From: a virus
Virus genome (UHGV): UHGV-0312576
Length of the DNA stretch: 64,000 nt
Strand: one strand, 5' to 3'
The notes beneath the pieces were generated by a model. The model was given only the letters and a program-made list of their open reading frames with translations, searched no databases and was not told the origin of the DNA. Positions 40,238-55,391 of the stretch are shown one piece after another (within the stretch, counting starts at the first letter, position 1; every line of letters begins with the position of its first letter). A program made the position numbers and the translations under genes.

Positions 40238-40242
40238 AAATT

Positions 40243-41516: not shown

Positions 41517-41575
41517 TACGTAATGAAACGTATGTTTCTTCCGAGATTGTGAGGTGATGAATTATAGAAAATTTT

Positions 41576-41944
41576 ATGTATAGTATTTTAAAAAATATAA
41601 AGGATTTGAACACTATAGCAATTTTTTATCCAAAAGAATTCCGTAATCATCCTATACTTCAAGAAAATATGAAGAATCTCAACTCTAATCTAAATACATG
41701 GATAAATGCTAAAGAAACGTATGAAAGAGAAAAAAGATTTATGGATTCATTACATTTCGATTCTGAGATAAATAAACAAAGAGAAATAATTAAGAACACG
41801 GAGATAGACTTGAAAAAAGCTGATGAGAAACTCAACAAAGAAATATCTCCGTATAAATGGAGAGTCATAGAGAGATTCGTAACGTGTATTGAGGGGCAAG
41901 ATATAAGAGCAGATTATGCATTGTTTTTAGAGGATAAGCGATGA
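41576..41944 (+). CDS. Hypothetical protein (122 aa).
   Basis: ORF. Confidence 0.4.
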   Translation: MYSILKNIKDLNTIAIFYPKEFRNHPILQENMKNLNSNLNTWINAKETYEREKRFMDSLHFDSEINKQREIIKNTEIDLKKADEKLNKEISPYKWRVIERFVTCIEGQDIRADYALFLEDKR

Positions 41945-42159
41945 AGATTAAATTCAAAAATGGCTCCTCAATAGAAAGTATTGGTGACGAATCAGATGTA
42001 AAGCGTTCTCAAAGAGTAGAGGAACAAATTGCCAGAATGTTAAAGCGAATCCAATATTGGCAGTATAATCCAGATAAATATATAGAATTTATTACTGGTG
42101 TAAAGTTGTCCTGGTATCAAAAAGCGTGGGTGAAATTATGGAGGAAAAATAAGAAATGA
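41941..42159 (+). CDS. Hypothetical protein (72 aa).
   Basis: ATGA overlap with the upstream ORF. Confidence 0.4.
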   Translation: MKIKFKNGSSIESIGDESDVKRSQRVEEQIARMLKRIQYWQYNPDKYIEFITGVKLSWYQKAWVKLWRKNKK

Positions 42160-42497
42160 ATTTACTAATTAAAGACAGAGCAAGCGGAAAGACAACAGGA
42201 TTAATCTACACGAGTGAAGCAACACAATATCCTATTGTTACATTCAACAGAATGTCGATTAACTACATAAAAGAAAAGGCAAAAGATATGGGGTGTTTAA
42301 TCCCGGAGCCGTTATGCATTGCCGATCTTAAAAGTAATTCGGCAATGGGGAGAATACTTCCTGATAATGTATTATTAGACGAAGCGGGTGGGATTATTGG
42401 GGATGCATTAAAAGCATATCTTAGAACAAATATTGTTGCCGCAACTATGACAGATTCATTAAGAGAACATTATGACAGGATGAAGAAAGCGGAGTAA
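42156..42497 (+). CDS. Small P-loop NTPase-like protein (113 aa).
   Basis: DRASGKTTGL Walker A-like. ATGA overlap with the upstream ORF. Confidence 0.4.
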   Translation: MNLLIKDRASGKTTGLIYTSEATQYPIVTFNRMSINYIKEKAKDMGCLIPEPLCIADLKSNSAMGRILPDNVLLDEAGGIIGDALKAYLRTNIVAATMTDSLREHYDRMKKAE

Positions 42498-42523
42498 AGG
42501 GCAGTTTCAAGAGAGGATTAATA

Positions 42524-42718
42524 ATGGAAGAAACAGATAAATTGATATTAAAGTTTAGCTATACAGATATGTATAATAATGAAACCAACTTATATAAAAC
42601 TATTAGCTCTTGTGCAGTAGATGATAGTTCAGAATATGACATTTTGGTTAGTGAATTTAGAAATTTTCTAGTGTCGTGCGGTTTTACTGAAGAGGTTGTT
42701 AAAAGTAGAATAATGTAA
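42524..42718 (+). CDS. Hypothetical protein (64 aa).
   Basis: RBS AGAGAGGATTAATA then ATG. Confidence 0.35.
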   Translation: MEETDKLILKFSYTDMYNNETNLYKTISSCAVDDSSEYDILVSEFRNFLVSCGFTEEVVKSRIM

Positions 42719-43086
42719 TTAAAGGAGTAAACCTTTCTTTCATCCCAGAAAAAACATATTGAGGTATAAATGGCAAAGATATTTTATAAGAAAAAGTTGT
42801 ATGGTTTTGAAAAAGATTGCGAAGATGAGTTCGGCAAATATCGCTGGTATTTTAGAATTTATAGATGTTTTTCCATTGAGGGTATTAGTTACTCAGCCGA
42901 GACATCGGATATGTTCACCAACCAGAAAAACTAAAAGATTGTATGAATACGGTATTAGAGCATCTTGAAAAAGATAACCCACGATATTACAGACTAAAAG
43001 AAAATGTTATAAGCAAGGGGCTACATAATAAGTTGTGGTAATCACAATGAAAGAGTAGCTTTATCTGCTCAGGGAGGAATAATGCA

Positions 43087-43398
43087 GTGAAAAAATTCAA
43101 ATGTACAGTAACCAGAGAGACAACCATGGAAATTGAAATAGATGACTCTGTTTGGACTCCTGATGCTATACGGGCATGGAGTAAATCATTCTATGATGCA
43201 GATGATTTAAAGGGTGTGGTGGAACATGTGGCTAGGCTGAAATCAAAGTATGAAGATGGAGAGTTCATTGAAGGATTCGGCATTCCGATGATAGATGGAA
43301 AGAAACCATATCCATACATAGAAGATAATCAGATGGCAAAAGATATAAATATCTGTAATCAATCTGTTTACTCAGATATTGATGTAGAGGAACTATGA
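43087..43398 (+). CDS. Hypothetical protein (103 aa).
   Basis: RBS CAGGGAGGAATA then ATG. Confidence 0.4.
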   Translation: MKKFKCTVTRETTMEIEIDDSVWTPDAIRAWSKSFYDADDLKGVVEHVARLKSKYEDGEFIEGFGIPMIDGKKPYPYIEDNQMAKDINICNQSVYSDIDVEEL

Positions 43399-43500
43399 GA
43401 AATATAGTATATGACTTTTTTATGGGGCTGATTTGTGTTTTGCTTGTATTAACTATGATAGGCATTTTAGTTCTGCCTGATGTTCTTGGAATATGGTCAC

Positions 43501-44169
43501 ATGGCAGGAAATGAAGTAGCTACGTGGCTGGATAAAGGAGTGTGTAATTTGAGAAAAGATATTTTGGGTAGAGAGCTGCACGATGGAGATGTTTGTGTTG
43601 GTAAAGGCACAGGAAGATATGTTGTAGGTATGGATGTTGGAGTATGGAGCGGTAAATCTATTGCTTTTAGAGGTGGCGGAAAACGTTCTATGGGAGATGT
43701 TTTTTTAGTTGTAAATCCATCTAAAGAAGAACTAGAAATAAAAGAAGAGATAGAAAAATCATTATCCGAAAGTGAAGCAAAGCGTAAAGAAAAAGAATCC
43801 ATATCTACTATACCCCTGAGTAACTTACAGGTAGGTGGAGTATATAAGTGCAATAATGGGCAAACCTATATCTATTTAGGAAAACGAAAAGTAATATTGG
43901 ATGATTGTTATAGATCTCATGACGATATTGCAGAAGGGCATTGCTTTGTCTACGTTAATGAAAAATGGTCAGATGATGAAATAAAAGAGAATATATTGTA
44001 TGTAAATACATATCGTGGAACGCATAATATTGATGTTTTAAAAGGGAATAAGAAATTGACAGAACTAATACGCGGTGTAGATTTAACATTCCCTATGATA
44101 AATGAAGTTAAGCGAGAGGGATATAATCGCTATTGCGGTGAGAATCATTATAAATTAACTGTTGAATAA
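43501..44169 (+). CDS. Hypothetical protein (222 aa; the track begins at 43480).
   Basis: ORF. A 30-aa hydrophobic micro-ORF (43422-43514) overlaps its start. Confidence 0.4.
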   Translation: MAGNEVATWLDKGVCNLRKDILGRELHDGDVCVGKGTGRYVVGMDVGVWSGKSIAFRGGGKRSMGDVFLVVNPSKEELEIKEEIEKSLSESEAKRKEKESISTIPLSNLQVGGVYKCNNGQTYIYLGKRKVILDDCYRSHDDIAEGHCFVYVNEKWSDDEIKENILYVNTYRGTHNIDVLKGNKKLTELIRGVDLTFPMINEVKREGYNRYCGENHYKLTVE

Positions 44170-44216
44170 GCGGAAGAAACAGTGGTTTTAAGTCATCAGA
44201 AAGGAAATAGAGAATA

Positions 44217-44516
44217 ATGAATAAAATATTAAAGAAGTATAGAAGTATTGTAGTTATTGGAACCGCGTTAGTATTCAATTTAGTTAGTAGCTTATTAGTG
44301 TATCATCCTGATGGGAAGCTGTTCAATATTCATCCAATGACAATAACTGAATGGGTATGTGATATTATTGCGATTATTGGCTGTTTTACTGGATTTGTAA
44401 TGATGTTGTTTGACGCAAATAGGGATACAAAGGATAAAATCAAAGAAGCTTTTTTAGAAGCTAACGAAGAACTGAAAAAGGACAAAGATAGGGCATTTGA
44501 AGCAACAAGAGACTAA
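44217..44516 (+). CDS. Small membrane protein (99 aa, 2 TM).
   Basis: Hydrophobic stretches IVVIGTALVFNLVSSLLVY and IIAIIGCFTGFVMMLF. Confidence 0.45.
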   Translation: MNKILKKYRSIVVIGTALVFNLVSSLLVYHPDGKLFNIHPMTITEWVCDIIAIIGCFTGFVMMLFDANRDTKDKIKEAFLEANEELKKDKDRAFEATRD

Positions 44517-44563
44517 ACGAGTATTTCTTCGTCTATAACAAAACAGAGTGGCATTATATTATT

Positions 44564-44761
44564 TTATATCTTAAATTTCATAGGTTCATTTTCAAAGACA
44601 GGTCTGATAATAATCTGATTTTCGTAGACTTCAGCTGCGAGTAATCTTCCAGGGAAAAAGGTTGTTTCATAAAGATAAGTTCCTTCGAGTTTGATAGATG
44701 GAATGGTTTCATTGGATTGCATTTTGAATAGATTTATTACTTTTGGATCTCGATTAGTCAT
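44564..44761 (-). CDS. Small minus-strand hypothetical protein (65 aa).
   Basis: RBS AGAAAGGACC before the ATG on the minus strand. Isolated antisense gene within a + strand block. Confidence 0.4.
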   Translation of the reverse strand: MTNRDPKVINLFKMQSNETIPSIKLEGTYLYETTFFPGRLLAAEVYENQIIIRPVFENEPMKFKI

Positions 44762-44844
44762 AATGGGTCCTTTCTGCCACTCTAGGACCTATTTTACCAT
44801 AGAGTGTTGGAAATGGCTATGTTCGCTAAATTGAGTAGGAGGTA

Positions 44845-45069
44845 GTGCTAATGCATTATGATGATGAATGGGAAAAGTATTATGGGAAATATGATAAAAC
44901 TCAGGAAGCAAATGCTGCTAGAGAGAAGATGATATTGGAATTATCTGTGGAGGAGAAAATCAATATTATGTTTGATGATTTTCTGCGGTCAAAAGAGAAT
45001 TACCAGGTAATAGGATTAGCCAAGAGATATTGCGAGAAAGAGGAGGGTGTAATTGAAGGAAGTAATTGA
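44845..45069 (+). CDS. Hypothetical protein (74 aa).
   Basis: RBS GTAGGAGGTAGTGCTA then ATG. Confidence 0.4.
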   Translation: MLMHYDDEWEKYYGKYDKTQEANAAREKMILELSVEEKINIMFDDFLRSKENYQVIGLAKRYCEKEEGVIEGSN

Positions 45070-46336
45070 TATTTTTAAACAAATTCAAGACACAAGCAGT
45101 CTGAATGATAAAAAGAAGATAATCGGTTCCAATAAAGACAACAAACTATTTAAGAAGTATCTGGTGTTTTTATTAGATAATAACATCGTGACAGGCATAA
45201 GCGATAAAAAAATTAGTAAACCAGATGCTAATACATGCCAGCAATGTAAAACTGTAAATTTAAATACCTTTGAGGATGTTATGGATTATCTGAAGGAACA
45301 TAATTCTGGACGAGATGAGGATGTCGCCAACGTTAAAGGATTTATCTATGACCATTACATAGAAAATGATTATGAGTTTATGTTTTATGTCCAGATGGTC
45401 ACTAAAAAGTTTAGACTTGGCTGTGATGCAAAAGTGATTAATAAGGTTATTCCGGGCCTGATTCCAACCTTTGATGTTATGCTTGGAACTCCAATTGATA
45501 AAGCAAAGGTGCCGGAGAATACGTGGTTCTCCTTAAGCCAGAAATTAAATGGAAACAGATGTATTTATTATGATGGGAAATTTTATACGCGTCAAGGTAA
45601 GGAGTATTATGGGCTTGATCATATAAAGCATGACATTGAAAAAATTGTGAATGCAAGAGATTATGTTTTTGACGGGGAACTTACATATAAAAATCTGGAG
45701 GGGTTAACTGATTCTGAAGCATTCCAAAAGGGAACAGGAATCGCCCAGAGTAAAACAGAATCAAAAGAAGAATTAAAATTGGTTTTATTTGATGTGTTAC
45801 CAAGGTATGAGTTTGATATTGGAAAATCAAAAGATACATATAGAAATCGGAAACAAAAACTTCTTGCGCTAAAAGCGTTCATTACTGGCAATCTTGAAAT
45901 CGTAACTATGTTCTATGAAGGAATTGATCAATCCCAAATCTGGAAATGGCTAGACTATGCAGAGACACATGATATGGAAGGGTTAATGCTGTCATTAGAT
46001 GCACCATATGAGTGCAAGCGTACTAAAACTTTATTAAAAGTTAAGAAGTTCTATTCTTGTGATATTCGGTGTATCGGAGTTGAAGAAGGGAGCGGACGCA
46101 ATAAAGGAACATTAGGAGCATTAATTTGCGATTATAAAGGAAATCGAGTAAATGTCGGATCAGGATTCTCCGATGCAGATAGGAAACATCTTTGGTTGAA
46201 TCCAAACAATGTTGTTGGGCATATTATTTCGGTTAAGTATAAAGAGGAAACTAAGAATAAGGATGGAGGAATATCTATTCAATTCCCTGTTTTCGAATGC
46301 GTAAGATTCGACAAGGATGAGCCAAGTTATAATTAG
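45053..46336 (+). CDS. ATP-dependent DNA ligase (phage-type).
   Basis: Motif I-like KLNGNR (KxDGxR with N in place of D). Motif IV EGLMLSL. Motif V LLKVKK. Confidence 0.55.
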   Translation: MKEVIDIFKQIQDTSSLNDKKKIIGSNKDNKLFKKYLVFLLDNNIVTGISDKKISKPDANTCQQCKTVNLNTFEDVMDYLKEHNSGRDEDVANVKGFIYDHYIENDYEFMFYVQMVTKKFRLGCDAKVINKVIPGLIPTFDVMLGTPIDKAKVPENTWFSLSQKLNGNRCIYYDGKFYTRQGKEYYGLDHIKHDIEKIVNARDYVFDGELTYKNLEGLTDSEAFQKGTGIAQSKTESKEELKLVLFDVLPRYEFDIGKSKDTYRNRKQKLLALKAFITGNLEIVTMFYEGIDQSQIWKWLDYAETHDMEGLMLSLDAPYECKRTKTLLKVKKFYSCDIRCIGVEEGSGRNKGTLGALICDYKGNRVNVGSGFSDADRKHLWLNPNNVVGHIISVKYKEETKNKDGGISIQFPVFECVRFDKDEPSYN

Positions 46337-46348
46337 GAGGAATAACCA

Positions 46349-46615
46349 TTGAACAGAATAAAAATTAAATTAGAGTCGCCTGAGCAAGTAACGGGCTTTA
46401 TTAATCTTTGCTCAAAATACAATAACGACATCAATCTATATGACGGTAGCATGGTTATAGATGCAAAATCTGTCATAGGGGTATTTGGAATCCAGATGGG
46501 TAAAGAAATTGAGGTTGAGATGCTTGGAGCGCACAAGAATGAGATTATAAATTTTATGGAAGAAATCAGAGGATATGAGGTACATAATGAAAACTATATT
46601 CAATACAATTCTTGA
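46349..46615 (+). CDS. HPr-family phosphocarrier-like protein of Crh type (88 aa): catalytic His15 absent, regulatory Ser46 context (DAKSVIGV) retained.
   Basis: Collinear with Bacillus HPr/Crh over all 88 aa (CSKYNNDINLY vs ASKYDADVNLEY; DAKSVIGVFGIQMGKEIEV vs NLKSIMGVMSLGIAKGAEI). TTG start with an AGGAGGA RBS. Confidence 0.6.
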   Translation: MNRIKIKLESPEQVTGFINLCSKYNNDINLYDGSMVIDAKSVIGVFGIQMGKEIEVEMLGAHKNEIINFMEEIRGYEVHNENYIQYNS

Positions 46616-47204
46616 TGATTGGAAAAGGGTAAAGAATCATTGTAGAACTACTGACAATAAAGATTTTACGGAAAATAATGTAAATGACGAATTTAAGAAA
46701 AAGCTTTTGATTTCAGAACATTCACCGATTCGTCTGCTTGAATTTGATTGGTCGTGGAAGGGTATAAAATATTGGGTATCAACGGAGTGGTCGCGTCATC
46801 GCTTTGAAAAATTTATTAGCAGCCAGAGAGATGACCGCTTAAAAGATGGTACATCAAGAGATAAGAAAACTCAGGATGCTCTAGTTAACTTTGATGGGTA
46901 CGCTAATATGCAAAATCTTATTGATACATGGAGGAAGCGTTTGTGTTTTCAGGCCACAAGAGAGGCAAGAGAACTGGCAGAAGATTTTAAATGCGAACTA
47001 CAAAAAACTCATCCGTTGGAAGCTAATGTTTTGGTTCCGAATTGTATATATCGCTTAGGGTGTCCAGAATTTAAACCATGTGGACTTTATGATGAATTTT
47101 ACACCTGGTGTTTTGAAAATAGAGAAAAGTCTGTAGGCGATATGACAATACAGGAACGATACGACCTATATAATATTTTCTATAATATGAAGGCGGGTGA
47201 TTAA
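46587..47204 (+). CDS. ThyX-like flavin-dependent thymidylate synthase (short form).
   Basis: RHR-x6/7-S-x-R motif (SRHRFEKFISSQR). Context of dNMP kinase, nucleotidase, NrdDG and dUTPase genes. Confidence 0.5.
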   Translation: MKTIFNTILDDWKRVKNHCRTTDNKDFTENNVNDEFKKKLLISEHSPIRLLEFDWSWKGIKYWVSTEWSRHRFEKFISSQRDDRLKDGTSRDKKTQDALVNFDGYANMQNLIDTWRKRLCFQATREARELAEDFKCELQKTHPLEANVLVPNCIYRLGCPEFKPCGLYDEFYTWCFENREKSVGDMTIQERYDLYNIFYNMKAGD

Positions 47205-47786
47205 ATGTTAACAATAATTACTGGGAAATCAGGAGCGGGAAAGTCAACAATTGTAAAAGAGTTGGAGAAATACGGCTTTCACCCAGTCTTGACTACAACC
47301 ACCAGACCTAAGAGGGAGAAAGAAATACAGAATGTTGATTATCATTTTGTATCCGAAGAAGAATTTTTAGAGAAAATTGATCAGAATTACTTTGCTGAAT
47401 ATAAGGTTTATAAAACAGAATTAGGAATATGGTATTACGGGTCAGCTAGAGAAAATATAGAGAGTGCTGGCGAAAAGGATATTATCATACTTACGCCAGA
47501 AGGTTATAGAGATGTGGTTAAAGAGTATCCCAGCTTGGAGTACCGATTGGTCTATATCTATGCCAATAATCAGACCATTAAAAATCGACTGATGAAACGT
47601 GGAGACAAAAAAGAAGAAGTTGATCGGCGGCTCCGCCAAGACTACGAAGACTTTAAGGGAGTGGAAAATTTAGCACATAGAATTGTTTACAACAATGAGA
47701 ATGATAAACTGTGTGATGTTGTAAACAAGATCAGAAAGTATTTAGAGGTAAATTTTGAACATGCAGAAACCAAAACTAATTCTTGA
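47205..47786 (+). CDS. Guanylate kinase-like (d)NMP kinase.
   Basis: P-loop ITGKSGAGKST followed by the TTTRPKR motif (the S/TTRxPR of guanylate kinases). Confidence 0.55.
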   Translation: MLTIITGKSGAGKSTIVKELEKYGFHPVLTTTTRPKREKEIQNVDYHFVSEEEFLEKIDQNYFAEYKVYKTELGIWYYGSARENIESAGEKDIIILTPEGYRDVVKEYPSLEYRLVYIYANNQTIKNRLMKRGDKKEEVDRRLRQDYEDFKGVENLAHRIVYNNENDKLCDVVNKIRKYLEVNFEHAETKTNS

Positions 47787-48336
47787 TTTCGATGGTTGCA
47801 TAGTAAATTCAATCAAGGCCATTGTAGATTTATACAATGAAGATTTTCACTATTACGATAACTATAAGTTTGTTAATTGGTGGGATATAAATACATGGGA
47901 ATTTTCTGAATGTAGTTGCGCAAGTGGTGAATACATAAACCAATATTTTAATCAAGAACGTTTTTTTGATAGACTTGAATTTATGCCTTGGGCAAAAGAA
48001 GTAATTACAGTACTTGAAAAGATATATGATATAACGATAGTTTCACATGGATATCCGCCCAATTTAATTCTGAAGCAATTCTGGATCGAATCAAACTTTT
48101 CTGATCTAAAGTTTATTGGAGTTGACTTAAATAAATGCAATGACAAATCTTGTATTGATATGACTGGAGCCTCTTTTTTGGATGATAATGCTAAGAATTT
48201 GTATAGTAGCAATGCTAAGCATAAGATTTGTTTTGGAGAAGAATATGAGTGGAATCGTAATTGGAAAAATGAACGATTAGTTAATTGGTGTGATGTTTAT
48301 AGAAAGTTTGTAGGAGGTGAGATAAGAGAATTTTGA
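47761..48336 (+). CDS. HAD-superfamily 5'(3')-deoxyribonucleotidase-like protein.
   Basis: N-terminal LILDFDGCIV (DxDG motif I). Size about 190 aa. The track gives a TTG start at 47755. Confidence 0.45.
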   Translation: MQKPKLILDFDGCIVNSIKAIVDLYNEDFHYYDNYKFVNWWDINTWEFSECSCASGEYINQYFNQERFFDRLEFMPWAKEVITVLEKIYDITIVSHGYPPNLILKQFWIESNFSDLKFIGVDLNKCNDKSCIDMTGASFLDDNAKNLYSSNAKHKICFGEEYEWNRNWKNERLVNWCDVYRKFVGGEIREF

Positions 48337-48521
48337 TTACAACAAGCGGTATGTTAGCACGAGAGCTACATAAAGATGATGATTCCTTTCTGACGGTAAT
48401 GTTAGAAGGTAGAGAATATATTATTGAAAGTATTGGTAGGGTGCCAGATTTTGTTGATGCTCCTACATCACATAAGTGCCTAAATATTCGTGACGGCGGA
48501 GAGGGGCATATTAAACGATGA
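48333..48521 (+). CDS. Hypothetical protein (62 aa).
   Basis: ORF overlapping the previous stop. Confidence 0.3.
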   Translation: MITTSGMLARELHKDDDSFLTVMLEGREYIIESIGRVPDFVDAPTSHKCLNIRDGGEGHIKR

Positions 48522-48668
48522 TCAGAGAAGATAAAAAGCTACTCATTGAATTGATATGTAATGAACAGACAAAAATGATAGTAAAGGACCATACAAAATA
48601 TGAGTCTGATAAGTATAAGCACCTGGAGGAACTGAAGGTTAGAATAAAAAATATGTGAGGTAGATAAA

Positions 48669-50912
48669 ATGGTAAAAGTTTTAAAAAGAGATTGTTCAGA
48701 GGTGGATTTTGATAAAGCTAAAATCTCAAGAGCAATCATGAAAGCAATGAAAAATGGTGGTGTAATACAACCAAAGATTGCAGATACCATAGCAGATGAA
48801 ATTGAGAAATCTTGCTATAACGACGAAATGATAAGTATTTATGATATCGAGAATATGGTTTTCCAGAAGCTGATAGACAAAAAAGCTGTACTTACGGCAC
48901 AAGCGTATGAAGGATACCGAAAGACCAGAGAATTTCAGCGAGAAATGTCTAATACAACTGATGAAGAAATTCAAGAATTATTAGGTGGAATCAACGATTA
49001 CTGGAATAGCGAAAATTCAAATAAAAATCCAAGGTTGGTTACTACACAGCGTGACTATATGGCGGGCATTGTTAGTAAAGATATATCAAGGAGATTTTTA
49101 CTCCCTCCAGAAATTGTCCAGGCTCATGAAGAAGCGATACTTCATTTCCATGATATGGATTATTTTGCCCAGGCTACGCATAATTGTGATTTGCTAAATT
49201 TGGAAGATATGCTTCAGAATGGCACAGTTATCAGTGAAACATTAATAGAGAAACCGCATAGCTTTTCTACGGCATGTAATATTGCAACTCAGATTATTGC
49301 CCAGGTTGCATCGTCACAGTATGGAGGGCAAAGCATTTCCTTAGCACACTTGGCACCATTTGTTGATATTAGTAGACAGAAAATTAGAAAAAAAGTAGAG
49401 CATGAAGTGGATGCGTTACTCAAGTCAAATTCTGTTCGTAGCTATTTTAATTATCCTGATTATGTAGAAACGGTTACGAATGAACGCTTGATGGATGAGA
49501 TTAAGAAAGGAATCCAGACCATCCAATATCAGGTCATTACTTTGATGACTACCAATGGTCAGGCACCATTTTTAACGGTATATTTATATCTTAATGAAGC
49601 TAAGGATAAGCAAGAAAAGGCTGATTTGGCCTTACTTATTGAAGAAACATTAAAGCAACGTTGCCAAGGTGTGAAAAATGAACAAGGTATATGGATCACA
49701 CCAGCATTCCCTAAACTGATTTATGTCCTAGAGGAAGACAATGTTTCGGAAGATAGTAAGTATTGGTATTTGACTGAATTAGCCGCAAAATGTACAGCAA
49801 AGCGTATGGTTCCGGATTATGTCTCTGAAAAAGTAATGCTTGAACTGAAGGGAGATGTCTATACCCCAATGGGATGTAGGAGTTTCCTTACTCCAGACCG
49901 CTTCACAGAAAAAGGTGTCGGGAATATTGCAAAAGCAATGAATTATGAAGAAGGAAAACATAAATACTATGGCCGATTTAATCAGGGTGTAGTAACAATT
50001 AATCTGCCAGACATAGCCTTATCTTCGGGTGGCGATTTTGATAAATTCTGGGAACTATTTGAGGAAAGAACAGAACTTTGCCATAAAGCACTTCGTATTA
50101 GACACGAACACTTAAAAGGAACACCTTCAGATGTTGCTCCTATTCTTTGGAGATACGGGGCATTAGCACGATTAGACAAAGGTGAAACTATAGATAATCT
50201 TTTATATTATGGTTATTCAACTATTTCCTTAGGATATGCCGGATTATACGAATGTGTAAAGTATATGACTGGGAAGAGTCATAGTGATGAAGGTGAAGGA
50301 GAGGCTTTCGGACTTGCGGTAATGCAAGCTCTAAACGATAAATGTAACCACTGGAAAGAGAATGAAAATATTGATTATAGTGTTTATGGAACTCCATTGG
50401 AATCTACTACGTACAAATTTGCGCAAAAACTTCAGGAGCGTTTTGGTGTAATAGAAGGAATTACAGATAGAGATTATGTCACTAATTCTTATCATATTCC
50501 AGTATTTGAAAAGATTGATCCTTTTGAGAAATTACGTTTAGAGGCCAAATTTCAGAAATTAAGTCCTGGAGGAGCTATTTCATATATTGAAACATGCAAT
50601 ATGCAAGATAATATTCCTGCTGTGTTGGAGATTCTTAAGTTTATCTATAACAACATTATGTATGCTGAATTAAATACAAAGAGTGATTATTGTCAAGTAT
50701 GTGGATACGATGGTGAAATCCAGTTATTAGATATCGATGGAAAACTTGGTTGGAGATGCCCAAATTGTGGTAATGAGGATACTAATAAAATGAACGTTGC
50801 AAGACGTACCTGCGGATATATTGGAACTGCAACAAATGGGTGGAACCAAGGACGATTAGATGAATTTCAGAATAGGTATGTTCATGTAGATGATCATGCA
50901 ATAGAGAATTAG
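48669..50912 (+). CDS. nrdD: Anaerobic ribonucleoside-triphosphate reductase NrdD.
   Basis: ATP-cone-like N-terminus. C-terminal zinc ribbon CQVCGYDGE...CPNCGNED. Glycyl-radical motif RRTCGYIG. Confidence 0.9.
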   Translation: MVKVLKRDCSEVDFDKAKISRAIMKAMKNGGVIQPKIADTIADEIEKSCYNDEMISIYDIENMVFQKLIDKKAVLTAQAYEGYRKTREFQREMSNTTDEEIQELLGGINDYWNSENSNKNPRLVTTQRDYMAGIVSKDISRRFLLPPEIVQAHEEAILHFHDMDYFAQATHNCDLLNLEDMLQNGTVISETLIEKPHSFSTACNIATQIIAQVASSQYGGQSISLAHLAPFVDISRQKIRKKVEHEVDALLKSNSVRSYFNYPDYVETVTNERLMDEIKKGIQTIQYQVITLMTTNGQAPFLTVYLYLNEAKDKQEKADLALLIEETLKQRCQGVKNEQGIWITPAFPKLIYVLEEDNVSEDSKYWYLTELAAKCTAKRMVPDYVSEKVMLELKGDVYTPMGCRSFLTPDRFTEKGVGNIAKAMNYEEGKHKYYGRFNQGVVTINLPDIALSSGGDFDKFWELFEERTELCHKALRIRHEHLKGTPSDVAPILWRYGALARLDKGETIDNLLYYGYSTISLGYAGLYECVKYMTGKSHSDEGEGEAFGLAVMQALNDKCNHWKENENIDYSVYGTPLESTTYKFAQKLQERFGVIEGITDRDYVTNSYHIPVFEKIDPFEKLRLEAKFQKLSPGGAISYIETCNMQDNIPAVLEILKFIYNNIMYAELNTKSDYCQVCGYDGEIQLLDIDGKLGWRCPNCGNEDTNKMNVARRTCGYIGTATNGWNQGRLDEFQNRYVHVDDHAIEN

Positions 50913-50924
50913 GGGGAAACTACA

Positions 50925-51497
50925 TTGCGCTTTGCTCAGATACGCAACATGGACATCAGCAATGGAGAGGGTATAGGTGTTGCCCTCTTCGTCCAGGGTT
51001 GTCATTTTCATTGTCACAATTGTTTTAATTTTGAAACATGGGATTTTAAGGGTGGATCAGAATGGACCAAAGAAACAAAATTACAGTTTTTAGACCTTAT
51101 TAGCAAACCATTTGTTAAAAGGGTCAGTATTCTTGGTGGTGAACCATTGGCAGATGAAAATGTAGATGAAATTTGTATGTTGTTAAATGAAATCCGCTAT
51201 ACTTTTCGAGATAAAATCATTTGGTTGTATACAGGCTATACCTTCGAAGAATCATTTGATTATAGCTGGCAAGAAAAAGCAGACCTAAGGTTTAGTGAAA
51301 ATCCTTTAGAACGCAGATCGGATTTAATTAAAACATGTAGGCAAAATACCATTAAATTATGTGATGTGCTTATAGATGGAAAATATATGGACGATGAGCG
51401 AGATTTAAATCTTAAATGGTGTGGCAGTAAGAATCAAAGAGTTATTGATGTTCAAAAATCACTTCTTAACGGAGAAATAGTTTTATGGACAGCATGA
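50925..51497 (+). CDS. nrdG: Anaerobic RNR activating protein NrdG (radical SAM).
   Basis: CxxxCxxC motif GCHFHCHNC. Lies immediately downstream of nrdD. Confidence 0.8.
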   Translation: MRFAQIRNMDISNGEGIGVALFVQGCHFHCHNCFNFETWDFKGGSEWTKETKLQFLDLISKPFVKRVSILGGEPLADENVDEICMLLNEIRYTFRDKIIWLYTGYTFEESFDYSWQEKADLRFSENPLERRSDLIKTCRQNTIKLCDVLIDGKYMDDERDLNLKWCGSKNQRVIDVQKSLLNGEIVLWTA

Positions 51498-51638
51498 ATC
51501 AGAACTGTATGGCGTATTTCCAAGAGGAGGTACGCCAATATAAGATAATGTTAGATGGAGTATTAAGTAAAGAGTATAGAGAATATCTAATTAGGAAGTT
51601 ACTTATGTTCCAGTATGTTATAAATCTATTGAAGGAGT

Positions 51639-52004
51639 GTGGGAATGATAATACTAAAACTACATAATGATGTGACACCAGAGAAATTAATCAAGGCAGG
51701 ATTTCGGCAGCAATCAGAAAATAAGCTGCTCTTTAGAATGAGGGATCGACTTTATAAGGATACAATTTCACTATCAATCAAAATAGATTTGTCAAAGGAA
51801 CCAGATGAACAGATTGAGTGGTATGTGATTGATAACAATACTGGTATGAGCTATAGTACATTCTATTTTACACCAAATTCATGTAAGGATCTGGTAAGAG
51901 ATACGGTATATAGAACATTTCGTGAGGTATTAAACGAGTTAGATAAAAGAGAAGTATTGTATATGGATGGTGACGAAAATGGAAACAAGAATAGCAAAAT
52001 TTGA
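51639..52004 (+). CDS. Hypothetical protein (121 aa).
   Basis: ORF. RBS GAGTGTGGGA. Confidence 0.4.
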   Translation: MGMIILKLHNDVTPEKLIKAGFRQQSENKLLFRMRDRLYKDTISLSIKIDLSKEPDEQIEWYVIDNNTGMSYSTFYFTPNSCKDLVRDTVYRTFREVLNELDKREVLYMDGDENGNKNSKI

Positions 52005-52518
52005 AAAGGTATCAAGAGAACAATTTTATAAAGATATGGTTGAGTCTTTTGGTGTTCAATACGGATTACCTGAAGATGGATTTCTTGATGAAATTTACGA
52101 GAGAATCAAACTACCACAAAGAGCCACAATGGGTTCGGCTGGATATGATATTTTTACACCAGTACATATTATACTGGAGCCAGGTAAGACAATTAAAGTG
52201 CCGACTGGTATCAGATGTAGTATTAATCCGGGATGGTTTCTTGGTATTTTACCTCGTTCTGGCCATGGATTTAAATATGGAGTACGCCTTGCGAATACTT
52301 TTGGAATAATTGACTGTGACTATTTTTCATCTGATAATGAGGGACATATTTTTGTAAAGCTAGTCAATGATTCATGTATCTGTAAAACTGTAGACATACC
52401 AACATGGCAGGGGATGGCTCAGGGTATCTTTCTACCATTTGGAATCACTGTAGATGATGAGAGTAATACAGTACGAAATGGTGGTTTCGGGTCAACCGAC
52501 AGACATACTCCACAATAA
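51967..52518 (+). CDS. dut: dUTP pyrophosphatase (trimeric dUTPase; start may be 51979).
   Basis: Motif 2-like RSGHGFKYGVRLAN. Motif 3 GIIDCDYFSSDNEGHIF. Confidence 0.7.
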   Translation: MVTKMETRIAKFEKVSREQFYKDMVESFGVQYGLPEDGFLDEIYERIKLPQRATMGSAGYDIFTPVHIILEPGKTIKVPTGIRCSINPGWFLGILPRSGHGFKYGVRLANTFGIIDCDYFSSDNEGHIFVKLVNDSCICKTVDIPTWQGMAQGIFLPFGITVDDESNTVRNGGFGSTDRHTPQ

Positions 52519-52520
52519 AA

Positions 52521-53812: not shown

Positions 53813-55177
53813 GTGGTGATGAGGATAAAAAAGAAAAAGTCTGAAATTATCGACCCATTGTCTTTTGATTCTTCAAGTGCTATGATAAACAGTATAGATA
53901 ATATACAGATATTATTAGCTAATATGAAAAAAGAAGAGGAATTAAGACAAAGGGCTAAGTATCTGCATGAACAACATTACAAAATATCAACATCCAAAAC
54001 AGGAAGCGTCATGACTTGGGTTTTTGACCCAAGTAAGGAGAATAACAGAAGAAAAATAAAAAAAACAACAATGGACGCTTTACTGGACGAATTAGTATCT
54101 ATTTATATAAAGGAAGGTGAGGCAGAGGATTATGTAGAAGAGCATCATGATATAATTGATGCACATTCCCAAGCTCAAAAAGAAGATACAAAACATAAGA
54201 CAATAACATTCCGGGAGTTTTATTCTGAATGGTTAAGTTATCAAGGGCTAGACCATGATGGGGCTACCATAGTAAGATATGATGTTGATTGGAATAAGTA
54301 TTACGTCAATGAACCTCTATCAAAGGATATCATTGATAATCCGATCAAGGATATTAAGCCAATCCAAATTAAAGTATGGGCGTATAAGCTTATTGAAAAG
54401 TACAAAATGACATCAACTAAGTATTATAATGTCTCAACAATACTTCGTCAGGGATTAGCTTTCGCTGCTTCTGAGGACATTGGAATTATTGACACATCAC
54501 CTTTTAAAGTGATAATCAAGAAGTCAGATAAAAAATTCAAGCATGCGAAAAAGCCTGAAAACAAAACTCAGGTATTTAATTTGGCGGTTCTAAAAAAATT
54601 AATTGACTTATGTTGGGAAGATTACAATGATAAGGATAAACAATATCTAACACCACTTGCAATATTATTTATGATAGAGACTGGGGTTAGGATAGGAGAG
54701 CTGTTGGGATTGTTTTGGAATGATGTTGAAGCTGATACTGTAAACATTAAACGACAGTATGGGCGTATTTATGATAATGGGGTTCTAGCTGGATACGATT
54801 TAAAAGAGTATACAAAATCTGAAGCGGGTGAACGTTCCATTCCATTGACCAATGAGGCAATCAAAATTCTTCAAGAAATTCGCAAGTATTATTTAAGGAA
54901 AGGTATCATTACGGAACGGATATTTGAGAAAGTTGGTTACTCGGCAACCAGAAATAAACTTTATAGGTATTGTGACAAGATGAACGAAATAAGAAAATCC
55001 AATCACAAAATCCGGAAGACATATGTTTCTCGCTTGCTTTACAACGGCCTATCAATAAATGATGTGAGAGAATTGGCCGGACATAACAGTGAGCAGACAA
55101 CGTTGCGTAACTATACTTTCGGCGTTGAGACTGATGAAGAATTGAAAACTCATGTCAAGGAAGCCTTAGCTTTATAA
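53813..55177 (+). CDS. int: Tyrosine-type site-specific integrase.
   Basis: C-terminal catalytic region GVRIGELLGL (R)... HKIRKTYVSRLL (HxxR) ... LAGHNSEQTTLRNYTF (catalytic Y). Confidence 0.85.
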   Translation: MVMRIKKKKSEIIDPLSFDSSSAMINSIDNIQILLANMKKEEELRQRAKYLHEQHYKISTSKTGSVMTWVFDPSKENNRRKIKKTTMDALLDELVSIYIKEGEAEDYVEEHHDIIDAHSQAQKEDTKHKTITFREFYSEWLSYQGLDHDGATIVRYDVDWNKYYVNEPLSKDIIDNPIKDIKPIQIKVWAYKLIEKYKMTSTKYYNVSTILRQGLAFAASEDIGIIDTSPFKVIIKKSDKKFKHAKKPENKTQVFNLAVLKKLIDLCWEDYNDKDKQYLTPLAILFMIETGVRIGELLGLFWNDVEADTVNIKRQYGRIYDNGVLAGYDLKEYTKSEAGERSIPLTNEAIKILQEIRKYYLRKGIITERIFEKVGYSATRNKLYRYCDKMNEIRKSNHKIRKTYVSRLLYNGLSINDVRELAGHNSEQTTLRNYTFGVETDEELKTHVKEALAL

Positions 55178-55391
55178 AAAACGTACCCAAACGTACCCAA
55201 ACTTTTGGTTTGGGGTGGGTACAGGACATTGGGAAAATGTTGAAAAAGTACGTAAATACGTTGTTTTTGAGTCTAGAAATGCGGATATGGAGCACGGGTT
55301 CGAATCCCGTATGCTCCATTGAAAAAAGTACGTAAAATGGAGGTTTTCTGTATATTATCTAAGCCGCATTTTTGAAAAACGTACCCAAACG
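55176..55391 (+). repeat. att-site-like repeat architecture in direct orientation: A (AAACGTACCCAAACGTACCCAAA) - B (TGAAAAAGTACGTAAA) - tRNA-type minihelix ATGGAGCACGGGTTCGAATCCCGTATGCTCCAT (55287-55319) - B - A. An 8-bp inverted pair AAATGCGG/CCGCATTT is also present.
   Basis: All repeats read directly. The minihelix is an acceptor-stem plus T-arm (TTCGAAT loop) lacking D and anticodon arms. It lies immediately 3' of the integrase gene. Confidence 0.55.

What the first reader, a model, noticed from the sequence alone, without database searches (positions are those of the whole stretch)
46349..46615. Phage-encoded Crh-like HPr (His15 lost, Ser46 site kept) next to nucleotide-metabolism genes
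The 88-aa product is collinear with Gram-positive HPr/Crh along its whole length, with the same length and conserved blocks around residues 28-38 and 45-62. The catalytic His15 (GIHARPA) is replaced (QVTGFIN), so it cannot carry phosphate in the PTS. The regulatory Ser46 context (KSIMG, here KSVIG) is preserved. This is the architecture of Bacillus Crh, whose only known role is CcpA-dependent catabolite control after Ser46 phosphorylation by HprK/P. A phage copy suggests hijacking or decoying of host carbon catabolite repression (HprK/P or CcpA) during infection or lysogeny. As far as I know this is not an established phage function.
Basis: partly seen in the sequence, partly recalled or inferred. 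Interest (0 to 1): 0.7.

Follow-up and report, generated by a model that had tools for sequence, protein, structure and literature searches.

The report
Phage HPr-like protein lacking histidine
A large prophage of the gut bacterium Enterocloster bolteae encodes a small protein with the fold of the sugar-transport carrier HPr that has lost its catalytic histidine loop but keeps its regulatory serine; it belongs to a very large, unstudied Clostridia family (not the Bacillus Crh type), and phages repeatedly carry it beside their DNA-precursor genes.

Summary
The ORF (46349-46615, +) is real and homologous to HPr: Pfam PF00381 23.8 bits (cut-off 23), B. subtilis HPr E=7e-7, AlphaFold pLDDT 88, and the top 39 PDB fold hits are all HPr/Crh. 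It has no His15, and the Lys-Ser (K40-S41) of the Ser46 site is invariant.

It is not Crh-like in architecture. The beta1-alpha1 active-site loop is 5 residues shorter. Ser10 occupies the His15 position and Glu12 the Arg17 position. Crh is no closer in sequence than HPr.

It belongs to a huge uncharacterised Clostridia family: at least 2,463 clusters at 50% identity and at least 581 species. Chromosomal copies lie divergent to the tRNA methylthiotransferase gene mtaB in 67 of 80 loci.

Phage copies occur on at least 92 IMG/VR contigs in 23 lineages. At least 12 lineages have it within 5 kb of dNTP-synthesis genes (Gmk, NrdD/G, ThyA/ThyX, dUTPase), as here. It is under purifying selection (dN/dS about 0.2).

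Best reading: a histidine-independent regulatory adaptor switched at the serine, possibly by host HprK/P, and acting on a partner other than CcpA. The function is untested.

The parts
46335..46340 (+). Shine-Dalgarno AGGAGG, 8 nt upstream of the TTG start. It overlaps the TAG stop of the DNA ligase gene (46334-46336), which suggests translational coupling.
   Evidence: Sequence read directly; ORF table.
46349..46615 (+). CDS of the 88-aa HPr-fold protein without His15. The folded domain is residues 1-77; residues 81-88 form a low-confidence tail.
   Evidence: The exact protein is on 409 contigs and NCBI names it 'HPr family phosphocarrier protein [Enterocloster bolteae]'. dN/dS is 0.18 against the 86%-identical copy in L019.
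46370..46384 (+). Codons 8-12 (L-E-S-P-E): the remodelled, shortened beta1-alpha1 turn. Ser10 (46376-46378) sits at the helix N-cap position occupied by His15 in HPr. Glu12 (46382-46384) sits at the Arg17 position.
   Evidence: DSSP of the model gives strand 3-7 and helix 11-22. The +5 register comes from phmmer and hhalign (V14-A19, T15-T20, F17-L22). In the family this position is Ser/Thr in 93% and Asp/Glu/Asn in 91%.
46460..46486 (+). Codons 38-46, D-A-K-S-V-I-G-V-F: the counterpart of HPr N43-M51, the Ser46 phosphorylation site and N-terminus of helix 2. The Ser41 codon is 46469-46471.
   Evidence: K40, S41 and G44 are 100% conserved, D38 99% and F46 97% in 362 unique family members.
46587..46615 (+). 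29-nt overlap between the 3' end of the HPr-like gene and the start of the ThyX-like gene, indicating co-transcription and coupling.
   Evidence: Gene calls on identical contigs and the ORF table. No terminator-like site lies between 45053 and 52518 on the + strand outside coding sequence.
45053..46336 (+). ATP-dependent DNA ligase, immediately upstream in the same operon.
   Evidence: Pfam DNA_ligase_A_M and DNA_ligase_OB_2; phrog_114 at E=3.6e-90.
46587..47204 (+). Divergent ThyX-like protein (205 aa), immediately downstream.
   Evidence: Thy1 E=8.4e-7 covering only the C-terminal ~40 aa. TIGR02170 scores 24.9 bits against a cut-off of 87.9. The identity is therefore tentative.
47205..48336 (+). 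Guanylate kinase (47205-47786) and a 5'(3')-deoxyribonucleotidase NT5C (47755-48336).
   Evidence: Pfam Guanylate_kin E=1.2e-18 and NT5C E=2.8e-14; phrog_1815.
48669..52518 (+). Anaerobic ribonucleotide reductase NrdD (48669-50912), activase NrdG (50925-51497) and dUTPase (51967-52518): the rest of the dNTP-supply module.
   Evidence: Pfam families on identical contigs.
53813..55355 (+). Tyrosine integrase (53813-55177) and the right end of the prophage (about 55355).
   Evidence: Pfam Phage_integrase. Identity of at least 98% to five other contigs that carry the identical (E. bolteae-named) protein stops at 55355, after which the flanks differ.

Best explanation
The gene encodes a functional, selected HPr-fold protein. 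It belongs to a large, uncharacterised, Clostridia-specific subfamily that I will call short-loop His-less HPr-like proteins. It is neither a PTS phosphocarrier nor a Crh orthologue.

Shown:
- The catalytic His and most of its loop are deleted, so phosphotransfer from Enzyme I is impossible.
- The only surface conserved across all phage and chromosomal members is the N-terminus of helix 2, D-x-K-S-x-x-G-x-F. This is the counterpart of HPr's Ser46 site.
- The gene sits inside, and is translationally coupled to, the phage's early DNA-replication and dNTP-supply operon: ligase, HPr-like, ThyX-like, Gmk, NT5C, NrdD/G, dUTPase. The same linkage recurs in at least 12 of 23 independent viral lineages.

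Inferred:
- It works as a small regulatory binding protein (an adaptor) that uses the Ser41 surface.
- That surface is probably switched by phosphorylation, most plausibly by the host HPr kinase/phosphorylase (about 40%). This would tie its partner to the host's glycolytic and energy status.
- The partner is probably not CcpA in the canonical mode, because the beta1-alpha1 turn and Arg17 are gone.
- During infection it most likely tunes host or phage metabolism in support of nucleotide-precursor supply. It may do this by imitating the host's own mtaB-linked paralogue: the phage lineage keeps the Ser surface but has lost other residues conserved in chromosomal copies.
For: Fold and homology.

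Loss of His15 and its loop, with an acidic residue at the Arg17 position.

Invariant K-S-x-x-G in 362 unique members. The chromosomal motif KSIMGIFSL is nearly identical to KSIMGVMSL of B. subtilis HPr (an HprK/P substrate by established knowledge), although the N-terminal 16 residues cannot be aligned at the sequence level.

Chromosomal copies: divergent to a genuine MtaB in 67 of 80 loci, with near-consensus sigma-A-type promoters seen by eye in the upstream regions printed.

Phage copies: six cultured Enterocloster phages, at least 92 IMG/VR contigs in 23 lineages, and three BFVD entries with TM 0.72-0.81.

Neighbours across lineages: Guanylate_kin 8, NRDD 6, ThyA 3 plus ThyX 3, dUTPase 3, deoxyribosyltransferase 4, DHFR 2, NT5C 2. 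The gene immediately downstream is ThyA, ThyX, Gmk or NrdD in five lineages. NrdD lies within 5 kb in 9 of 23 lineages and Gmk in 8 of 23, at only 24-40% identity to the window enzymes.

Purifying selection: dN/dS is 0.18 and 0.22, and the gene's GC (0.333) matches the phage's.

Operon position: no promoter or terminator of its own.

Lineage divergence: the window lineage lacks the beta4 His (84% in the mostly chromosomal set) and the Lys at the Thr20 position (92%).

Precedent: a Ser-phosphorylated HPr paralogue works with a non-CcpA regulator in a gut Clostridium, namely F. prausnitzii HPr2 with FruR (PMC11906611).
Against: - No experiment or complex model supports any partner, and phosphorylation of Ser41 is untested.
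- Ser46 is also conserved in HPr proteins of bacteria that lack HprK/P (PMC10287919), where it may simply cap helix 2.
- From my own recollection of the L. casei HprK/P-HPr complex (not checked here; the paper was not held), the kinase also contacts helix 1 and the His15/Arg17 region. That region is remodelled here.
- The window lineage's motif (KSVIGVFGIQ) has drifted further from the HPr consensus than the chromosomal copies have.
- The dNTP-module linkage is absent in 11 of 23 viral lineages, including the cultured PMBT24 group, where the gene lies between a cell-wall hydrolase and genes of unknown function.
- That linkage could partly reflect shared ancestry of large Clostridia phages rather than function.
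- The chromosomal linkage is to a tRNA-modification gene, not to nucleotide synthesis.
- The presence of hprK, ccpA and a chromosomal paralogue in E. bolteae itself was not verified.
Confidence: 0.45

Rival explanations
1. The protein is a Crh-like co-repressor or decoy: it is phosphorylated on the serine by HprK/P and then binds CcpA, or it titrates HprK/P or CcpA, to rewire carbon catabolite repression during infection or lysogeny.
For: It has the HPr fold, no His15, and an invariant K-S-x-x-G. The hydrophobic CcpA-contact positions Ile47, Met48 and Met51 (PMC10287919) are conservatively retained as Val42, Ile43 and Phe46, and as Ile, Met and Phe in chromosomal members.
Against: - The beta1-alpha1 turn, which is part of the CcpA interface, is shortened by 5 residues.
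- The Arg17 position is Glu (Asp/Glu/Asn in 91% of the family, never Arg). From my own knowledge of the CcpA-HPr-Ser46-P structures, Arg17 contacts acidic CcpA residues that drive the allosteric switch. That point was not checked here.
- Crh is no closer in sequence than HPr.
- The gene is in a lytic-cycle replication and dNTP operon, not a lysogeny-expressed moron position.
- Chromosomal relatives show no PTS or CCR gene linkage, and exact cre sites are not enriched upstream (1 of 80).
- At least one gut Clostridium appears to lack a typical CcpA partner for P-Ser-HPr (PMC11906611).
Confidence: 0.15
2. The protein is a phosphorylation-independent accessory subunit, chaperone or allosteric partner of a phage nucleotide-metabolism enzyme (thymidylate synthase, guanylate kinase or anaerobic ribonucleotide reductase). 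In this model the HPr fold is only a scaffold.
For: The gene is directly upstream of, and overlapping, the ThyX-like gene in the window. The gene immediately downstream is ThyA, ThyX, Gmk or NrdD in five other lineages. At least 12 of 23 lineages have the gene within 5 kb of dNTP genes.
Against: - The partner enzyme is not constant: ThyA, ThyX, Gmk, NrdD, RlaP and SH3-hydrolase all occur next to it.
- 11 of 23 lineages show no such linkage.
- The far more numerous chromosomal members sit beside mtaB, with no dNTP genes nearby.
- The 100% invariance of Lys-Ser in a motif matching that of B. subtilis HPr, an HprK/P substrate by established knowledge, is not explained.
Confidence: 0.2
3. The protein is a dominant-negative mimic of the host's own mtaB-linked His-less HPr-like protein. 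The phage copy would keep the surface that binds one host partner but lack the rest, and so block an unknown housekeeping function, possibly linked to tRNA modification or translation.
For: The phage lineage retains the D-x-K-S-x-x-G-x-F core. It has lost the beta4 His (84% in the mostly chromosomal set, 37% in viral copies, 0% in the window lineage) and the Lys at the Thr20 position (92% down to 0%). Chromosomal copies have strong sigma-A-type promoters and conserved divergent synteny with MtaB across families.
Against: The function of the chromosomal protein is unknown. A chromosomal copy in E. bolteae was not demonstrated. Many viral copies still have the His and Lys. Divergence could simply be drift in a fast-evolving phage gene.
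Confidence: 0.15
4. The gene is a non-functional hitch-hiker or a mis-called ORF.
For: The TTG start, the small size, and a Pfam score only just above threshold.
Against: There is a strong RBS. The model is confident. dN/dS is about 0.2 in two phage lineages. The identical protein occurs on 409 contigs. Homologues occur in 23 viral lineages and thousands of bacterial clusters, with invariant residues.
Confidence: 0.03

Closest known systems
Crh (catabolite repression HPr) of Bacillus subtilis
   Same: HPr fold, no catalytic His15, and a retained Lys-Ser-Ile-Met-Gly serine site. It is a regulatory rather than a transport role.
   Different: Crh is a full-length HPr with a point replacement (His15 to Gln) and an intact GLQARPA loop including Arg17 (the N-terminal sequence is from memory; it aligned). 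The window protein lacks 5 loop residues and has Ser at the His15 position and Glu at the Arg17 position. Crh is no closer in sequence than HPr. Crh is confined mostly to Bacillus species (PMC11906611), whereas this family is Clostridia-wide and mtaB-linked. Crh's known partners (CcpA; also GapA and MgsA, from the literature) are untested here.
HPr (PtsH), the PTS phosphocarrier of Firmicutes
   Same: The same beta-alpha-beta-beta-alpha-beta-alpha fold (TM 0.6-0.67). About 30% identity from helix 1 to helix 3. The serine-site motif is almost identical.
   Different: No His15, no Arg17 and a shortened active-site loop. It scores below all NCBIfam HPr cut-offs (TIGR01003 21.4 against 47.9). There are no PTS genes in its neighbourhood.
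HPr2 of Faecalibacterium prausnitzii (PMC11906611)
   Same: An HPr paralogue in a gut Clostridium that is specialised for regulation through the serine site. Its P-Ser form co-activates a non-CcpA regulator, the DeoR-type FruR. This is the best functional precedent for a Ser-switched adaptor with a non-CcpA partner.
   Different: HPr2 still has His15 and a normal loop, and is weakly phosphorylated by Enzyme I. That paper describes only two HPr proteins and does not mention the His-less family.
Bc1009, the 'HPr-like phosphocarrier' of the Bacillus cereus SigB cluster (PMC9912610)
   Same: An HPr-like small protein with a regulatory, non-transport role: it controls a SigB sub-regulon.
   Different: It is specific to the B. 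cereus group.
Automatically annotated phage HPr-like entries (Enterocloster phage PMBT24 WDQ45469 'phosphocarrier protein'; UniProt/BFVD A0A8S5PSI8, A0A8S5S213, A0A8S5S9E0)
   Same: The same His-less subfamily, at least for PMBT24 (37% identity). The BFVD entries have the same fold (TM 0.72-0.81). This shows the gene class is already deposited in databases.
   Different: These are names only. The PMBT24 genome paper does not mention the gene. One BFVD entry is misnamed 'Catabolite control protein A'.

Membership tests
PTS phosphocarrier HPr (PF00381 / TIGR01003) | Open-faced beta-sandwich fold, beta-alpha-beta-beta-alpha-beta-alpha | tested here: met
   AF2 model with pLDDT 88 and elements E3-7, H11-22, E27-31, E36-38, H42-46, E53-59, H63-76. 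The top 39 Foldseek PDB hits are all HPr or Crh.
PTS phosphocarrier HPr (PF00381 / TIGR01003) | Score above the curated family thresholds | tested here: inconclusive
   Pfam scores 23.8 bits against a gathering score of 23, so it just passes. NCBIfam TIGR01003 scores 21.4 against 47.9 and the HPr equivalog NF010352 scores 25.2 against 110, so both fail. Chromosomal relatives also fail.
PTS phosphocarrier HPr (PF00381 / TIGR01003) | Catalytic His15 at the N-cap of helix 1, within a G-[IL]-H-[AT]-R-P loop | tested here: not met
   There is no His in residues 1-61. The loop is 5 residues shorter and Ser10 is at the N-cap. Across the family this position is Ser 71% and Thr 22%, never His.
PTS phosphocarrier HPr (PF00381 / TIGR01003) | Arg17 next to the active site | tested here: not met
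   Glu12 occupies this position. Across the family it is Asp 43%, Glu 38% and Asn 10%.
PTS phosphocarrier HPr (PF00381 / TIGR01003) | Genomic association with ptsI or EII genes | tested here: not met
   No PTS genes occur within 10 kb in the prophage or among the neighbours listed for the chromosomal example loci, and none appear among the 25 commonest of 56 Pfam families in the viral neighbours.
Crh (catabolite repression HPr) | Full-length HPr in which His15 is replaced (by Gln) while the loop and Arg17 are kept | tested here: not met
   hhalign needs a 3-residue gap plus a 2-residue N-terminal offset in this region, and no Arg is present. The predicted helix 11-22 is continuous.
Crh (catabolite repression HPr) | Regulatory Ser46 in a K-S-I-M-G context | tested here: met
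   K40-S41-V-I-G in the window protein. K, S and G are 100% conserved in 362 members.
Crh (catabolite repression HPr) | Closer in sequence to Crh than to HPr (orthology) | tested here: not met
   phmmer gives HPr 7e-7 and Crh 0.2. The profile gives HPr 2.2e-8 and Crh 2.1e-7.
Crh (catabolite repression HPr) | Phosphorylated on Ser46 by HprK/P | not testable with these tools
   This needs an in vitro kinase assay or phosphoproteomics. Only motif conservation is available here.
Crh (catabolite repression HPr) | The P-Ser form binds CcpA through alpha1, alpha2 and the beta1-alpha1 turn | tested here: inconclusive
   The helix-2 hydrophobic contacts are conservatively kept (V42, I43, F46). The beta1-alpha1 turn is truncated and the Arg17 position is acidic. 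No binding test was possible.
Short-loop His-less HPr-like family of Clostridia (unnamed; defined here) | 74-88 aa with a shortened beta1-alpha1 turn carrying [ST]-x-[DEN]-x-[VI]-x-x-F | tested here: met
   The window protein has S10-P-E-Q-V-T-G-F17.
Short-loop His-less HPr-like family of Clostridia (unnamed; defined here) | Invariant D-[AG]-K-S-[IVT]-[MI]-G-[VI]-F motif | tested here: met
   D38-A-K-S-V-I-G-V-F46.
Short-loop His-less HPr-like family of Clostridia (unnamed; defined here) | Significant profile match to family members | tested here: met
   The window protein is the first sequence of the 28-member profile A1, which also holds PMBT24-group and chromosomal members. That profile finds 2,463 clusters at E<=1e-10. 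tblastn of the window protein hits cultured Enterocloster phage copies at 1e-6.
Short-loop His-less HPr-like family of Clostridia (unnamed; defined here) | Divergent synteny with mtaB (a feature of the chromosomal members) | tested here: not met
   0 of 80 viral loci and not the window, against 67 of 80 chromosomal loci. The phage copies form a context-distinct subset.
Short-loop His-less HPr-like family of Clostridia (unnamed; defined here) | Conserved His at the end of beta4 and Lys at the Thr20-equivalent position | tested here: not met
   The window lineage has Leu59 and Thr15, whereas the mostly chromosomal set has His 84% and Lys 92%.

The most novel reading that the evidence does not exclude
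Large phages of gut Clostridia carry a serine-switchable HPr mimic. It plugs into the host's HprK/P energy-sensing system, or impersonates the host's uncharacterised mtaB-linked His-less HPr paralogue. In this way it would couple, or uncouple, host central metabolism and the phage's dNTP-synthesis programme from the cell's carbon status. That would be a new class of phage host-takeover factor and the first functional handle on a Clostridia-wide orphan HPr family.
Probability: 0.2. Interest if true: 0.8.

Novelty: new variant of a known kind. Interest (0 to 1): 0.55.

Why it matters
HPr and its paralogues are the central carbon-status signalling proteins of Firmicutes. This work shows that the phage gene is not an odd one-off Crh copy. 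It is a member of a very large family, found in at least 581 Clostridia species and thousands of sequence clusters. The family consists of His-less, loop-truncated HPr-like proteins for which I found no functional literature.

Two independent and strongly conserved genomic linkages give concrete starting points for discovering what this orphan family does. Chromosomal copies are linked to the tRNA methylthiotransferase gene mtaB, and phage copies are linked to dNTP-synthesis genes.

If the conserved serine is a real HprK/P target, phages of abundant gut anaerobes would be tapping the host's main metabolic sensor. That is relevant to phage-host dynamics in the gut, and it is testable with the cultivable E. 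bolteae / PMBT24 system. If the serine is not a target, the family would illustrate re-use of the HPr scaffold for a PTS-independent role.

Tried and rejected
- PHROGs and PADLOC scans of the protein gave no hit, so it is not a catalogued phage family or defence component.
- I tested for cre (CcpA-binding) sites upstream of 80 chromosomal copies and in the window. Exact consensus matches were 1 of 80, and none in window 44500-46360.
- A sporulation-specific role was considered because PMBT24 has a SleB-like hydrolase next to the gene. It was set aside because chromosomal copies have near-consensus sigma-A-type promoters.
- I tried to show that E. bolteae has its own chromosomal paralogue. The last database search and a cluster look-up returned no organism names for the relevant clusters, so this is unresolved.
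- I tried to obtain the HprK/P-HPr contact list. PMC129691 is not held and PMC8004850 does not describe the interface. Statements about kinase contacts are therefore from memory and are marked as such.
- The promoter scan of 40000-55500 gave no more matches than shuffles (71 against 70.4), so no promoter is claimed.
- Two GenBank 'Bacteriophage sp.' hits (MT835522, MT835862) appear from their ORFs to be bacterial chromosome fragments. They were not counted as phage evidence.
- Literature searches for phage-encoded HPr found only incidental annotations.
Full report
**1. The observation**

Window 46349-46615 (+) is an 88-codon ORF. It has a TTG start and an AGGAGG Shine-Dalgarno sequence 8 nt upstream, which overlaps the stop codon of the preceding DNA ligase gene.

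The product matches Pfam PTS-HPr (PF00381) at E=4.5e-5 and 23.8 bits, just above the gathering score of 23. It matches B. subtilis HPr chains in the PDB at E=7e-7. An AlphaFold2 model built on a 28-sequence family alignment is confident (pLDDT 88, pTM 0.76). Its secondary-structure order is that of HPr: E3-7, H11-22, E27-31, E36-38, H42-46, E53-59, H63-76. The first 39 Foldseek hits in the PDB are all HPr or Crh, most with TM 0.57-0.67. The homology is therefore real.

There is no histidine in the N-terminal 61 residues, and the K-S-V-I-G motif is present.

**2. Corrections to the observation**

The protein is not collinear with HPr. From helix 1 to helix 2 the register is window residue n = HPr residue n+5 (V14-A19, T15-T20, F17-L22, K40-K45, S41-S46). 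There is a further 2-residue deletion after helix 2.

The model's helix 1 runs continuously from residue 11 to 22, twelve residues. By my recollection, HPr helix 1 spans residues 16-27. Strand 1 ends at residue 7.

It follows that the 5 missing residues come out of the beta1-alpha1 active-site loop. Ser10 sits at the helix N-cap position that His15 occupies in HPr, and Glu12 sits at the Arg17 position. hhalign against Crh places the gap slightly differently, but it also finds no His and no Arg anywhere in this region.

The total length of 88 aa is coincidental. Residues 81-88 have a mean pLDDT of 48 and overlap the next gene. Close homologues are 78-84 aa with variable C-termini.

**3. Where the window comes from**

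The whole window is 32-40% G+C with almost all genes on the + strand.

The identical protein occurs on 409 contigs up to 856 kb long, and NCBI names it 'HPr family phosphocarrier protein [Enterocloster bolteae]'. On those contigs the same gene order runs as follows: PolIII-alpha, RecD-like helicase, methyltransferase, ATP-ligase, HPr-like, ThyX-like, guanylate kinase, NT5C nucleotidase, NrdD, NrdG, dUTPase, SH3/Hydrolase_2, and a tyrosine integrase. Host genes follow.

The window matches these contigs at 98% identity or better up to position 55355 and then diverges. That point is the prophage's right end, and the element sits in different flanking contexts.

Upstream, the window carries an RNA ligase, a polynucleotide kinase, DnaB and a RecJ-like nuclease.

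The HPr-like gene has no promoter or terminator of its own, and its 3' end overlaps the ThyX-like start by 29 nt. It is therefore part of the replication and dNTP-supply operon of a large temperate phage, not a lysogeny-expressed moron.

**4. The family it belongs to**

tblastn finds 78-aa homologues (35-39% identity) in six cultured, roughly 100-kb Enterocloster bolteae phages. In PMBT24 the gene is annotated 'phosphocarrier protein'. The PMBT24 genome paper does not mention it.

Searching with the PMBT24 protein opened up a very large set of 74-80-aa proteins from Lachnospiraceae, Oscillospiraceae, Ruminiclostridium and Eubacterium. All share the pattern M-K-x-x-x-I-x-L-x-S-I-[DE]-x-V-K-x-F-V-N ... 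R-Y-T-I-D-A-K-S-I-M-G-I-F-S-L-D-L.

Measures of family size:
- A profile of phage plus chromosomal members finds 2,463 clusters (at 50% identity) with E<=1e-10 among 1.84 billion representatives.

Conservation across 362 unique members:
- Lys40, Ser41 and Gly44 are 100% conserved, Asp38 99%, Phe17 98% and Phe46 97%.
- The His15-equivalent is Ser or Thr in 93% and never His.
- The Arg17-equivalent is Asp, Glu or Asn in 91% and never Arg.

These figures are somewhat inflated, because retrieval favoured the motif.

At the sequence level the family profile aligns to HPr only from residue 17 onward. All members tested score below every NCBIfam HPr cut-off. This is therefore a distinct subfamily: HPr fold, truncated active-site loop, invariant serine site.

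**5. Chromosomal context**

In 67 of 80 species-representative loci, the gene lies immediately next to, and divergent from, a gene of about 440 aa. That neighbour is a genuine MtaB, the tRNA ms2t6A methylthiotransferase (TIGR01579 equivalog, 404-466 bits against a cut-off of 357). ThyI lies on the other side in 33 of 80 loci. The synteny holds even where MtaB identity has fallen to 37-60%.

None of the 80 viral loci shows this arrangement.

One Oscillospiraceae lineage has three tandem copies.

Upstream regions show near-consensus TTGACT-17-TATAAT promoters, and exact cre sites are not enriched. The chromosomal protein therefore looks like a constitutively expressed housekeeping factor, unlinked to PTS or catabolite-repression genes.

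I found no paper on it. A detailed study of HPr paralogues in the gut Clostridium F. prausnitzii describes only two HPr proteins, both containing His15 (PMC11906611).

**6. Phage context**

IMG/VR contains at least 92 contigs with a relative, mostly 100-200 kb long. The 59 copies that could be extracted fall into 23 lineages at 70% identity.

A Pfam scan of 133 neighbouring proteins (within 4 genes on either side, one locus per lineage) is dominated by nucleotide metabolism:
- guanylate kinase: 8
- NrdD: 6
- ATP-cone: 5
- nucleoside deoxyribosyltransferase: 4
- ThyA: 3
- ThyX: 3
- dUTPase: 3
- DHFR: 2
- NT5C: 2
- DNA ligases and methylases also occur.

The gene directly downstream is ThyA (two lineages), ThyX, Gmk or NrdD in five lineages.

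NrdD lies within 5 kb in 9 of 23 lineages and Gmk in 8 of 23, at only 24-40% identity to the window enzymes. Counting any dNTP gene, at least 12 of 23 lineages show the linkage.

A rough expectation for a random gene in a 100-200-kb phage with one such cluster is about 10-15%. This is my estimate, and the lineages are not fully independent.

The gene is under purifying selection: dN/dS is 0.18 for the window against L019, and 0.22 for PMBT24 against CB473P1. Its G+C content (0.333) matches the phage's.

BFVD holds three gut-phage proteins with the same fold (TM 0.72-0.81), carrying automated names.

**7. What it most likely does**

Shown:
- It cannot be a PTS carrier.
- It is selected.
- Its only universally conserved surface is the serine site at the N-terminus of helix 2.

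Inferred:
- The chromosomal motif K-S-I-M-G-I-F-S-L is almost identical to K-S-I-M-G-V-M-S-L of B. subtilis HPr, which is an HprK/P substrate (established knowledge). This holds although the rest of the protein has diverged to about 25-30% identity and the constraints from Enzyme I and EIIA should have disappeared along with the histidine.
- The simplest explanation is a retained constraint from HprK/P and/or a partner that depends on the phosphorylated serine.
- I therefore favour a histidine-independent adaptor switched at Ser41. I put phosphorylation by host HprK/P at about 40%.

Caution is needed. Ser46 is also kept in V. cholerae HPr, which has no HprK/P (PMC10287919). In addition, the kinase is reported, from my memory, to touch the His15/Arg17 region, which is remodelled here.

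**8. Why CcpA is an unlikely partner**

According to PMC10287919, CcpA binds HPr through alpha1, alpha2 and the beta1-alpha1 turn. Ile47, Met48 and Met51 pack on CcpA, and P-Ser46 is held by Arg304 and Lys308.

Here the helix-2 hydrophobic residues are conservatively kept (Val42, Ile43, Phe46). However, the turn is truncated and the Arg17 position has reversed charge.

A precedent exists for a P-Ser HPr paralogue that works through a different regulator in a gut Clostridium. F. prausnitzii HPr2 acts with the DeoR-type FruR, and that organism may lack a typical CcpA.

**9. Mimicry of a host paralogue**

The window lineage keeps the serine core but has replaced two positions that are strongly conserved in the mostly chromosomal set. 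One is a His at the end of strand 4: 84% in that set, 37% in viral copies, and Leu in the window lineage. The other is the Lys at the Thr20 position: 92% in that set, and Thr here.

This is compatible with a partial mimic of a host paralogue. I could not show that E. bolteae has such a paralogue.

**10. Novelty and verdict**

Database entries for phage HPr-like proteins exist, so the bare observation is not new.

These points are new, as far as the held literature shows:
- The protein is not Crh-like. It belongs to a very large, uncharacterised, loop-truncated His-less HPr family.
- That family has a deep chromosomal linkage to mtaB.
- Phages have repeatedly placed it in their dNTP-supply modules.

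I classify it as a new variant of a known kind, a regulatory HPr paralogue, with moderate-to-good interest (0.55). The function remains inferential, and the decisive experiments are simple and feasible.

Noticed in passing
L011 4586-6240; L015 4269-6835; chromosomal loci L098-L177: Chromosomal members of the His-less HPr-like family lie divergent to a genuine mtaB (tRNA ms2t6A methylthiotransferase) in 67 of 80 Clostridia species loci, often with thiI on the other side. This is a deep, unexplained synteny for an uncharacterised small protein.
   Followed up: partly
L015/L016 6001-6835: There are three tandem paralogues of the His-less HPr-like gene in an Oscillospiraceae genome. All three retain D-A-K-S-[IL]-M-G.
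   Followed up: partly
Family alignment, column of window residue L59 (window 46523-46525): A His at the C-terminal end of strand 4 is 84% conserved in the mostly chromosomal members, 37% in viral copies, and absent (Leu) in the window lineage. The Lys at the Thr20-equivalent position (92%) is likewise replaced by Thr. This may mark a second functional site that the phage copies have dropped.
   Followed up: partly
window 46587-47204: The 'ThyX-like' protein matches the Thy1/ThyX models only over its last ~40 residues (24.9 bits against a cut-off of 87.9), although it contains an S-R-H-R-F-E-K-F-I-S-S-Q-R stretch reminiscent of the ThyX RHR motif. It may be a strongly divergent flavin-dependent thymidylate synthase or an enzyme for a modified pyrimidine.
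   Followed up: partly
L025 5283-5978; L075 5202-5921; L046 5482-6189: A separate family of 231-239-aa proteins has no Pfam or NCBIfam hit and contains 'GSEHRKF[ML]RQIFVSVDITAPLYWWKEFDTYK'. It lies just downstream of the HPr-like gene in three viral lineages: immediately in L025 and L075, where it is followed by Gmk, and as the second gene downstream in L046. It may be another ThyX-like enzyme.
   Followed up: partly
window 8088-10327: An RNA ligase (phrog_968) sits adjacent to a polynucleotide kinase/phosphatase-like protein. This resembles a T4-like tRNA-repair pair, which suggests a counter-defence against host anticodon nucleases.
   Followed up: no
window 21792-22011: Two phage-encoded tRNAs: tRNA-Gln(TTG) and tRNA-Met(CAT).
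   Followed up: no
window 13862-14863: A PAPS-reductase-like protein (phrog_424) lies in the early region. Such proteins in phages are often involved in DNA modification or queuosine-type pathways.
   Followed up: no
window 4479-5672 (-) and 62792-63964 (-): A transposase (phrog_2199) is inserted on the opposite strand inside the prophage. An IS110-family transposase lies in the flank beyond the prophage end.
   Followed up: no
window 55356-62704: Beyond the prophage end (~55355) the window carries LexA (55875-56504), a DinB/IMS-family polymerase (56982-58259) and a metallo-beta-lactamase-fold protein. Five other contigs carrying the identical (E. bolteae-named) protein have a different flank (Lactamase_B, Asp/Glu racemase). 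G+C stays low (0.34-0.40), so this flank may be another mobile element.
   Followed up: partly
L006 10239-20267: In one E. bolteae contig a Mu-like transposable prophage (Mu transposase, GemA, Mor, gp27) is inserted into the ThyX-like gene just downstream of the HPr-like gene, truncating it to 129 aa.
   Followed up: no
BFVD entry A0A8S5PSI8; GenBank MT835522 and MT835862 (L009, L010): An 81-aa phage HPr-fold protein is named 'Catabolite control protein A' in UniProt/BFVD, probably an annotation transferred from a CcpA-HPr complex. Two 'UNVERIFIED Bacteriophage sp.' records that carry family members appear from their ORFs to be bacterial chromosome fragments.
   Followed up: no
L001 5542-5988 (PMBT24) and window 53032-53721: A Hydrolase_2 (SleB-like cell-wall hydrolase) gene lies directly upstream of the HPr-like gene in the virulent Enterocloster phages, about 6.4 kb downstream in this prophage, and among the neighbours in 4 of 23 viral lineages. 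This is a weaker, second recurrent association.
   Followed up: partly
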